DNA of 6,982 nt from a virus (Duplodnaviria; Heunggongvirae; Uroviricota; Caudoviricetes): IMG/VR virus record IMGVR_UViG_2547132417_000010; one strand, 5' to 3'. Under the pieces are notes generated by a model. It did no database searches. It was not told the origin of the DNA and saw nothing but the letters and a program-made list of their open reading frames with translations. The position numbers and the translations under genes are program-made. This document shows, piece after piece, positions 3,361 through 3,775 of the stretch (position 1 is its first letter; the number at the start of each line of letters is the position of its first letter).

Positions 3361-3588
3361 ATGCTGAAAAATGAACCCTCATTCGCATCTCTGCTCGTTA
3401 AGCAAAGTCCAGGCATGCATTACGGTCACGGCTGGATCGCGGGTAAAGATGGTAAGCGCTGGCACCCGTGCCGCTCTCAGTCCGAATTATTAAAAGGGCT
3501 GAAATCTAAGCAGTCGAAGTCGTCAGGCTTTTTAATTATTCGTATTGTCCACTTTATTGTTAAAGGGATTAAGCATGTCACGCGATGA
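3361..3588 (+). CDS. Hypothetical small basic protein (75 aa from ATG 3361)
   Basis: ATG at 3361 with GAGG overlapping the cII-like stop, suggesting translational coupling. It sits where 186 has fil/dhr. No recognisable motif. Confidence 0.4.
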   Translation: MLKNEPSFASLLVKQSPGMHYGHGWIAGKDGKRWHPCRSQSELLKGLKSKQSKSSGFLIIRIVHFIVKGIKHVTR

Positions 3589-3775
3589 ATTAAGAATTGT
3601 TTTAGGAGCCATGATTCCGAATATGGAAGACGGTTTTGAAATTAAAACCCGCGACGGTGCAATACTTCGTGTTGACCCTGAGTGGGAATGCTGCAAAGAG
3701 TTTAAGGATGGCCTGAAAGCTGAAATTATCAGCCAGTTAAAAAGTAAACCTGCCGTTGTATTTGGCTATAGCTAA
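3575..3775 (+). CDS. Hypothetical small protein (66 aa from ATG 3575)
   Basis: RBS AAGGGA (3562..3567) 7 nt before the ATG at 3575; the six-frame ORF 3545..3775 is the same frame with an earlier start lacking an RBS. Overlaps the preceding ORF by 14 nt. No recognisable motif. Confidence 0.4.
   Translation: MSRDELRIVLGAMIPNMEDGFEIKTRDGAILRVDPEWECCKEFKDGLKAEIISQLKSKPAVVFGYS

What the first reader, a model, noticed from the sequence alone, without database searches (positions are those of the whole stretch)
3361..3775. Two overlapping small ORFs at the fil/dhr-equivalent position; candidate host-takeover proteins
In 186 the genes after cII are fil (host cell-division inhibitor) and dhr (host replication inhibitor). 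Here two small ORFs of 75 and 66 aa occupy that position, translationally coupled (GAGG at the cII-like stop; 14-nt overlap between them). I recognise neither sequence. The first is very basic at its C-terminus, and the second has a CC pair in PEWECCKEF. Small early-operon proteins of temperate phages are a rich source of host-targeting inhibitors.
Basis: inference. Interest (0 to 1): 0.45.

Follow-up and report, generated by a model that had tools for sequence, protein, structure and literature searches.

The report
Phage 186 fil and dhr orthologues
The two small overlapping genes are the already named fil (cell-division inhibitor) and dhr (host DNA-replication inhibitor) genes of coliphage 186, sitting in a 186-like prophage, so the finding is real but ordinary.

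Summary
ORF1 (3361-3588, 75 aa) and ORF2 (3575-3775, 66 aa) overlap by 14 nt. A GAGG spans the cII stop, and AAGGGA lies 6 nt before ORF2.

The proteins are not unknown. ORF1 is 91% identical to phage 186 Fil and matches Pfam PF10893 (Phage_186_Fil) at 83.8 bits against a cut-off of 25. ORF2 is 97% identical to phage 186 Dhr (precomputed Pfam PF26872, Phage_186_Dhr). Gene lengths, the overlap, both ribosome-binding sites and the downstream tR1 terminator match those of 186.

Both genes are under purifying selection (dN/dS 0.10 and 0.03 against 186).

New detail from this work:
- fil is the conserved gene of the slot. dhr is a minority cassette: 4 of 63 species genomes, 10 of 93 Fil-bearing phage records, 14 of 5,426 E. 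coli genomes.
- The Fil C-terminal tail changes with the downstream cassette, but every tail I examined is basic and amphipathic.
- The CC pair of Dhr is absent in distant relatives.
- Neither protein gave a confident model or any fold match.

The molecular targets of both proteins remain unknown. Novelty: already known. Interest: low.

The parts
2844..3353 (+). cII orthologue (169 aa), the gene immediately upstream; its TGA stop overlaps the fil ribosome-binding site
   Evidence: Pfam PF06892 Phage_CP76, E 9e-47. Same 510-nt length as 186 cII.
3352..3355 (+). GAGG Shine-Dalgarno for fil; it overlaps the cII stop and lies 5 nt before the ATG
   Evidence: Sequence. Invariant in the window, 186 and SEN1.
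3361..3588 (+). fil orthologue (75 aa): a conserved core of about 50 aa, then a basic linker and an amphipathic C-terminal helix (residues 56-75)
   Evidence: 91% identity to 186 Fil. PF10893 at 83.8 bits. phrog_816 'cell division inhibitor'. dN/dS 0.10. Tail hydrophobic moment 0.75-0.81.
3563..3568 (+). AAGGGA Shine-Dalgarno for dhr, inside the fil coding sequence, 6 nt before the ATG
   Evidence: Sequence. AAGGRG is kept in 186 and SEN1.
3575..3775 (+). dhr orthologue (66 aa, net charge -2); it overlaps the 3' end of fil by 14 nt (3575-3588)
   Evidence: 97% identity to 186 Dhr. phrog_6069 E 6e-49. Precomputed PF26872 Phage_186_Dhr on the identical protein. dN/dS 0.03.
3793..3822 (+). tR1-equivalent intrinsic terminator after dhr
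   Evidence: Terminator scan found a 7-pair stem followed by CTTTTTATTG. It aligns with the annotated 186 tR1.
2348..2376 (+). pR-like promoter candidate that would drive the apl-slot gene, cII, fil and dhr as one early transcript
   Evidence: Consensus scan only, 10 of 12 matches. The position corresponds to 186 pR between cI and apl. Inferred, not shown.

Best explanation
Window 3361-3775 holds the fil and dhr genes of a 186-like (Eganvirus, Peduoviridae) prophage.

Expression (inferred from 186). When CI repression is lifted, the rightward early promoter transcribes the apl-slot gene, cII, fil and dhr as one message, which ends or is anti-terminated at tR1. fil is translated from a GAGG that overlaps the cII stop. 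dhr is translated from an AAGGGA inside fil and starts 14 nt before the fil stop, so the three genes are translationally coupled.

Function (by orthology). Fil blocks host cell division when made in excess. Dhr depresses host chromosomal DNA synthesis. Both are accessory host-takeover functions and are not needed for phage growth.

Mechanism (my inference, not shown).
- Fil: the conserved N-terminal core of about 50 residues (PSFASLL...H..HGWI..G...P) binds a divisome component. The basic amphipathic C-terminal helix holds Fil at the inner membrane, in the manner of the membrane-targeting helices of FtsA and MinD.
- Dhr: a small acidic helix-strand-strand-helix protein that binds and blocks a host replication protein stoichiometrically.
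For: Identity:
- 88% nucleotide identity to phage 186 and SEN1 across the block.
- 68/75 and 64/66 identical residues to 186 Fil and Dhr, with no gaps.
- Same gene lengths, overlap, ribosome-binding sites and terminator.
- PF10893 at 83.8 bits against a cut-off of 25. PHROG 816 and 6069. PF26872 on the identical Dhr protein.

Real genes: dN/dS 0.10 and 0.03, with differences concentrated at third codon positions.

Function: the 186 depositors annotate fil as 'overexpression blocks cell division' and dhr as 'inhibits host DNA replication'.

Context: int, cI, apl-slot gene, cII, fil, dhr, DUF2732, DksA/TraR zinc finger and gpA lie in the same order as in 186.

Fil tail:
- It is modelled as a helix and holds the highest pLDDT block of the Fil model.
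- Hydrophobic moment 0.75-0.81; 86 of 2,000 shuffles reach it.
- The non-homologous tails of the other cassette types that I computed, and a 29%-identical Fil with the same kind of WLS(K/R)L tail by inspection, are also basic and amphipathic.
Against: - No experiment was done on this allele. The functions are transferred by orthology.
- The fil phenotype in 186 is an overexpression phenotype.
- Neither target is known, and I found no open-access paper on either mechanism.
- The AlphaFold models are weak: pLDDT 62 and 60, pTM 0.38 and 0.26.
- No fold or PDB sequence match exists, so the binding-inhibitor mechanisms are inference only.
- The amphipathicity statistic is only about 4% against shuffles for the window's tail, and weaker for the 66-aa forms (139 and 389 of 2,000).
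- This prophage copy has a truncated int, so it may never complete a lytic cycle.
Confidence: 0.93

Rival explanations
1. The two ORFs are new host-targeting proteins, unrelated to Fil and Dhr, that replaced them in this slot.
For: The second slot is exchangeable in related prophages. A DUF5347-type gene sits there in 49 of 63 species genomes, and other cassettes in 10 more.
Against: 91% and 97% identity to 186 Fil and Dhr over their full lengths. The Pfam and PHROG family matches agree.
Confidence: 0.01
2. The ORFs are chance open frames in a non-coding spacer between cII and the terminator.
For: They are short. Other small ORFs overlap them on both strands: 3371-3493 (+), 3477-3581 (-) and 3532-3696 (-).
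Against: dN/dS is 0.03-0.17 in the annotated frames, and 70-90% of differences (58-90% when the SEN1 comparisons are included) fall at third positions. There are 401 Fil and 76 Dhr protein clusters across Enterobacterales. Both Shine-Dalgarno sequences are conserved.
Confidence: 0.01
3. They are true fil and dhr orthologues, but host shut-off is a side effect of overproduction. Their natural role would be something else, such as tuning the lysis-lysogeny decision, countering a host defence, or excluding other phages.
For: The fil phenotype is recorded only for overexpression. dhr is dispensable enough to be swapped for unrelated cassettes in most relatives. From my own knowledge, both are non-essential in 186. 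Both sit directly after cII, the lysogeny activator.
Against: Dhr was defined by depression of host replication during infection. That rests on my own knowledge of Richardson and Egan 1989, J Mol Biol 206:59, which I could not retrieve here. There is no match to any PADLOC defence model. Both genes would be repressed in the lysogen, because they lie on the pR transcript (by analogy).
Confidence: 0.06

Closest known systems
Fil of coliphage 186 (NP_052282 / AAC34179; Pfam PF10893 Phage_186_Fil, formerly DUF2724)
   Same: 75 aa, 91% identical with no gaps. Same position after cII, same GAGG coupling, same C-terminal tail type and same overlap with dhr.
   Different: There are seven substitutions, mostly conservative. 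They lie at residue 4, in the linker (residues 49, 51 and 52) and in the tail (I/V swaps at 66, 67 and 70). The immunity region around it is SEN1-like rather than 186-like: a 287-aa CI and a 117-aa apl-slot protein.
Dhr of coliphage 186 (NP_052283 / AAC34180; Pfam PF26872 Phage_186_Dhr)
   Same: 66 aa, 97% identical. Same 14-nt overlap with fil, and followed by tR1.
   Different: Two substitutions (E19D, K53S). RefSeq still calls the E. coli prophage copies 'hypothetical protein'.
Salmonella phages SEN1, SW9, SI22, BIS20 and PHB48 (Eganvirus)
   Same: The same cII-fil-dhr-DUF2732-DksA/TraR block at 88-89% nucleotide identity. SEN1 also shares the long CI and the long apl-slot gene.
   Different: Those are free phages. 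Here the prophage has a truncated int and an IS insertion.
Other phage-encoded division inhibitors (lambda Kil, Qin DicB, T7 Gp0.4). These are functional analogues named from my own knowledge and from the papers listed.
   Same: Small early-expressed proteins that cause filamentation when produced.
   Different: There is no sequence relationship. PF10893 was the only Pfam family hit for Fil at E <= 0.01. The target of Fil is unknown, whereas Kil, DicB and Gp0.4 act on FtsZ assembly.
Membrane-targeting amphipathic helices of FtsA and MinD (sequences recalled from my own knowledge)
   Same: The Fil tails are C-terminal, basic and amphipathic. Their hydrophobic moment (0.68-0.81) is similar to that of the FtsA tail (0.78). 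The commoner WLxKL tail resembles the WIKRL of FtsA.
   Different: This is a resemblance only. Membrane binding was not tested. The MinD tail scored low in the same test (0.38).

Membership tests
Phage_186_Fil (Pfam PF10893) | Match to the family HMM above the curated gathering score | tested here: met
   83.8 bits against a cut-off of 25, E 6.5e-24, residues 5-55 on profile positions 1-51 of 56.
Phage_186_Fil (Pfam PF10893) | Full-length orthology to the type protein, 186 Fil | tested here: met
   68 of 75 residues identical, no gaps.
Phage_186_Fil (Pfam PF10893) | Located directly downstream of cII in the early lytic operon of a P2/186-like phage | tested here: met
   Window gene order, compared with 186, SEN1, EtG, Midge and Kc166BP.
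Phage_186_Fil (Pfam PF10893) | Blocks cell division when overexpressed | not testable with these tools
   Known only from the 186 GenBank annotation.
Phage_186_Dhr (Pfam PF26872) | Sequence membership: match to the type protein and to the family model | tested here: met
   64 of 66 residues identical to 186 Dhr. The identical protein P0001 and the gene in L009-L014 carry a precomputed PF26872 hit. phrog_6069 E 6e-49. The local Pfam copy lacks this model, so it returned no hit.
Phage_186_Dhr (Pfam PF26872) | Conserved core motif IPxMxxGFxI ... P ... F, shared with the most distant relatives | tested here: met
   I14, P15, M17, G20, F21, I23, P35 and F43 are invariant in an alignment that includes relatives of 28-36% identity.
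Phage_186_Dhr (Pfam PF26872) | Depresses host DNA replication | not testable with these tools
   Known from the 186 GenBank annotation and from my own knowledge of Richardson and Egan 1989.
   C39 and C40 are invariant in the 22 close members. In the distant relatives they read SV, CV and YV. The protein has no other cysteines.
Known division-inhibitor families other than Fil (lambda Kil, DicB and similar), and anti-phage defence proteins | Match to the family model | tested here: not met
   No Pfam family other than PF10893 at E <= 0.01. No PADLOC model at E <= 0.001.
C-terminal amphipathic membrane-targeting helix (FtsA/MinD type) | A C-terminal helix with a high hydrophobic moment and basic residues | tested here: inconclusive
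   Residues 56-74 are helical in the model. Hydrophobic moment 0.75-0.81, reached by 86 of 2,000 shuffles. Membrane binding itself was not testable.

The most novel reading that the evidence does not exclude
Fil would be a two-part inhibitor. Its conserved 50-residue core binds a divisome target that has not yet been identified. Its C-terminal amphipathic membrane anchor is interchangeable, because it is encoded by the 5' edge of whichever cassette lies downstream. Dhr would be an orphan-fold protein confined to P2/186-like phages, with only 7 clusters at 50% identity among 1.84 billion proteins, and would block host replication through a target or mode not yet described for any phage inhibitor.
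Probability: 0.25. Interest if true: 0.45.

Novelty: already known. Interest (0 to 1): 0.12.

Why it matters
As a discovery it does not matter much. These genes were named and given phenotypes in coliphage 186 decades ago, and both now have Pfam families.

Three residual points have some value:
- The molecular targets of Fil and Dhr appear never to have been published in the open literature I searched. They remain cheap, well-defined candidates for finding new handles on the divisome and the replisome.
- The survey shows that fil is the stable gene and dhr a rare, swappable cassette. This tells an experimenter which relatives to compare.
- RefSeq still labels the E. coli copies of Dhr 'hypothetical protein', so the annotation could be improved.

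Tried and rejected
1. Structure route. The AlphaFold2 models were weak: Dhr pLDDT 62 and pTM 0.38, Fil pLDDT 60 and pTM 0.26.
   - Foldseek against PDB for Fil: none at E <= 0.001.
   - Foldseek against BFVD for Dhr: none at E <= 0.001.
2. Profile searches of PDB sequences for both families found nothing below E 0.19.
3. NCBIfam returned no model for either protein. PADLOC returned none.
4. An exhaustive profile search for distant Dhr relatives found only 7 clusters, all small proteins. The informative contexts were P2-like prophages. This gave no functional lead.
5. I suspected that the extra small ORF after fil in four loci (CCYPS..DG..F.LKDG) was a diverged Dhr. I rejected this: hmmsearch scores were at or below 0 bits, and hhalign probability was 0.3%.
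6. The CC pair as a metal or redox site was rejected, because it is not conserved in distant relatives.
7. Seven literature searches for work on the Fil or Dhr mechanism found only a 186 CII paper that uses fil as a reporter fusion point.
8. Rfam found no RNA family in the window.
9. Origin in an E. coli complete genome was rejected. The best full-window matches are 86-90% identical. The window is 100% identical to GCA_051991285.1 CP189652.1, whose species name the tools did not show.

Full report
**Observation.**
- An ATG at 3361 opens a 75-codon frame that ends at 3588. An ATG at 3575 opens a 66-codon frame that ends at 3775. They overlap by 14 nt.
- The cII-like gene (2844-3353; Pfam Phage_CP76, E 9e-47) stops with TGA at 3351-3353.
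- GAGG at 3352-3355 overlaps that stop and lies 5 nt before the first ATG. AAGGGA at 3563-3568 lies 6 nt before the second ATG.
- PEWECCKEF is present in the second protein. The last 31 residues of the first protein have net charge +8.

**What it is.** A DNA search of the phage collection matched the block end to end at 88-89% identity in Salmonella phages SEN1, SW9, SI22, BIS20 and PHB48, and in Escherichia phage 186. In 186 the features under the match are annotated fil, dhr, cII and terminator tR1.
- In the 186 record, fil is 228 nt and dhr is 201 nt, and they overlap by 14 nt. Those are the same numbers as here. The depositors' notes read 'overexpression blocks cell division' and 'inhibits host DNA replication'.
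- ORF1 is 68/75 identical to 186 Fil, and ORF2 is 64/66 identical to 186 Dhr. Neither alignment has a gap.
- ORF1 matches Pfam PF10893 (Phage_186_Fil) at 83.8 bits against a cut-off of 25, and PHROG 816 'cell division inhibitor'.
- ORF2 matches PHROG 6069. The identical protein in the large protein collection carries a precomputed hit to PF26872, which another tool names Phage_186_Dhr. That model is absent from the local Pfam copy.
- A three-way DNA alignment shows that both Shine-Dalgarno sequences, both start codons, the overlap and the tR1 hairpin are conserved. A terminator-like site was found at 3793-3822.

**Are they real genes?** Yes.
- Against 186, 19 of 27 differences in fil and 18 of 20 in dhr fall at third codon positions.
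- Nei-Gojobori dN/dS is 0.10 for fil and 0.03 for dhr, against 0.14 for the neighbouring cII.
- Fil has 401 clusters at 90% identity. Dhr has 76. Wherever a source names an organism, it belongs to the Enterobacterales.

**Context.** The window is 100% identical to part of chromosome CP189652.1 (GCA_051991285.1). It is 99.9% identical over 303-6652 to intact prophage copies in other assemblies. The gene order follows 186:
- int
- a DUF2511/YebY gene
- cI (287 aa, with two CI-type HTH stretches)
- a 117-aa gene in the apl slot
- cII, fil and dhr, followed by tR1
- a DUF2732 gene
- a DksA/TraR zinc-finger gene
- gpA

The immunity region is of the SEN1 type, and several non-essential 186 genes before A are missing. 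In this copy, int is cut after residue 260 of 340 by a common mobile element, and an ISL3 element sits after gpA.

**Variability of the slot.** I fetched 63 species-representative genomes that encode a Fil relative and classified the gene that follows fil:

| Gene after fil | Genomes | Fil length | Overlap with fil |
|---|---|---|---|
| DUF5347-type, 112-118 aa | 49 | mostly 66 aa | mostly 37 nt |
| Dhr | 4 | 74-75 aa | 11-14 nt |
| Unrelated, 121-124 aa | 4 | 63-66 aa | 4 nt |
| An extra small ORF | 4 | 81-98 aa | 55-58 nt as first called (start redefined) |
| Doubtful | 2 | 77 aa | none |

- In the phage collection, Fil is encoded in 93 records and Dhr in only 10, which represent six phages. 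All ten also carry the 75-aa Fil.
- Among 5,426 complete E. coli genomes, the fil-dhr block covers at least 80% of the query in 14. RefSeq calls Dhr 'hypothetical protein' there.
- So fil is the stable gene and dhr is a minority cassette.
- The Fil core (residues 1 to about 50) is conserved. The tail is not homologous between cassette types, so the recombination joint lies inside fil.
- A metagenomic P2-like prophage carries a 29%-identical Fil next to a 36%-identical Dhr, without overlap. Another carries a Dhr relative and no gene with a Phage_186_Fil Pfam hit. The two genes therefore assort independently.

**Mechanism: shown versus inferred.**
- Shown: orthology, coupled arrangement, purifying selection, and position on what in 186 is the pR early transcript.
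- Transferred by orthology: division block (Fil) and depression of host DNA synthesis (Dhr).
- Inferred for Fil: the invariant core (P6, S7, A9, S10, L12, H20, H23, G24, W25, I26, G31, P36) is the target-binding part. The tail is a membrane-binding amphipathic helix. It is helical in the model. Its hydrophobic moment is 0.75-0.81, comparable to my recalled FtsA tail, and 86 of 2,000 shuffles reach that value. The non-homologous 66-aa tails (WLSKLF, WLLKALRRLF) also score as amphipathic and basic, and the tail of the 29%-identical Fil (WLSRLV) looks the same by inspection.
- Inferred for Dhr: a small acidic helix-strand-strand-helix protein that acts by binding a host replication protein. Its family-wide invariant residues are I14, P15, M17, G20, F21, I23, P35 and F43. 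The CC pair is replaced by SV, CV or YV in distant relatives, so it is not the core.

**What failed.**
- Both AlphaFold models are low-confidence.
- PDB sequence profiles gave nothing.
- NCBIfam and PADLOC have no model for either protein.
- Rfam found no RNA family.
- The exhaustive profile search found only seven Dhr clusters at 50% identity among 1.84 billion proteins.
- The literature library holds no paper on either mechanism.
- What I say about the original dhr work (Richardson and Egan 1989, J Mol Biol 206:59) rests on my own memory.

**Verdict.** The functional guess is right. The implied novelty is not: these are fil and dhr. The finding is already known and of low interest. The only open question is the long-standing one of what Fil and Dhr bind.

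Noticed in passing
window 1-302 and 199-1083 (-): The integrase gene is cut after residue 260 of 340, which removes the last 80 residues. Positions 1-302 are the end of a mobile element found in 4,221 of 5,426 E. coli genomes and annotated there as a transposase or an IS3-like ISEc52 element. In the source chromosome, a group II intron reverse transcriptase lies just upstream (L012 1-1509). The prophage is probably unable to excise.
   Followed up: partly
window 6653-6982 (transposase fragment 6681-6923, - strand): An ISL3-family insertion sequence (PF01610) lies after gpA. It carries a DUF1706 gene beside the transposase (L012 9321-11078). It is absent from the otherwise 99.9% identical prophage copies L009, L010 and L014.
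   Followed up: partly
window 1455-2318 (-) and 2440-2793 (+): The CI repressor is 287 aa and has two Phage_CI_repr HTH stretches, against 192 aa in 186. The protein in the apl slot is 117 aa and has no significant Pfam match. This immunity module is of the SEN1 type and presumably hetero-immune to 186.
   Followed up: no
window 1107-1445 (-): A 112-aa DUF2511/YebY gene with an apparent signal peptide (MKKFLFGIICIALSSSTFA) sits between int and cI, where 186 has no gene. A YebY gene also lies next to int in a very distant metagenomic P2-like prophage (L081 1048-1389). It may be a conserved lysogen-expressed moron.
   Followed up: no
window 3520-3588; loci L015-L077: The Fil C-terminal tail is not homologous between prophages that carry different downstream cassettes: 75-aa Fil with dhr, 66-aa Fil with the DUF5347 gene, 81-98-aa Fil with another ORF. 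The cassette boundary therefore lies inside the fil coding sequence, near codon 50-55. The tails for which I computed the hydrophobic moment are basic and amphipathic.
   Followed up: partly
L009 310-2663 (outside the window, beyond int in intact copies): Intact copies of this prophage carry a two-gene ATPase plus HNH pair next to int. The pair matches the PADLOC models PDC-M01A and PDC-M01B, and the ATPase also matches the PADLOC PtuA model (E 1e-133 to 1e-158). It is a likely prophage-borne anti-phage defence system.
   Followed up: partly
L081 3758-4198; L006 3484-3693: Very distant Dhr relatives (28-36% identity) occur in metagenomic P2-like prophages. One follows a 29%-identical Fil without overlap. 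Another has no gene with a Phage_186_Fil Pfam hit and lies upstream of a Dam-type methyltransferase gene and gpA. Fil and Dhr therefore assort independently.
   Followed up: partly
window 4293-4339 compared with L001 4500-6357: The early operon is shorter than in 186. The genes annotated in 186 as DNA polymerase exonuclease subunit, DUF5405 protein and PAPS reductase-like protein, which lie between the DksA/TraR gene and A, are absent. gpA is 741 aa.
   Followed up: no
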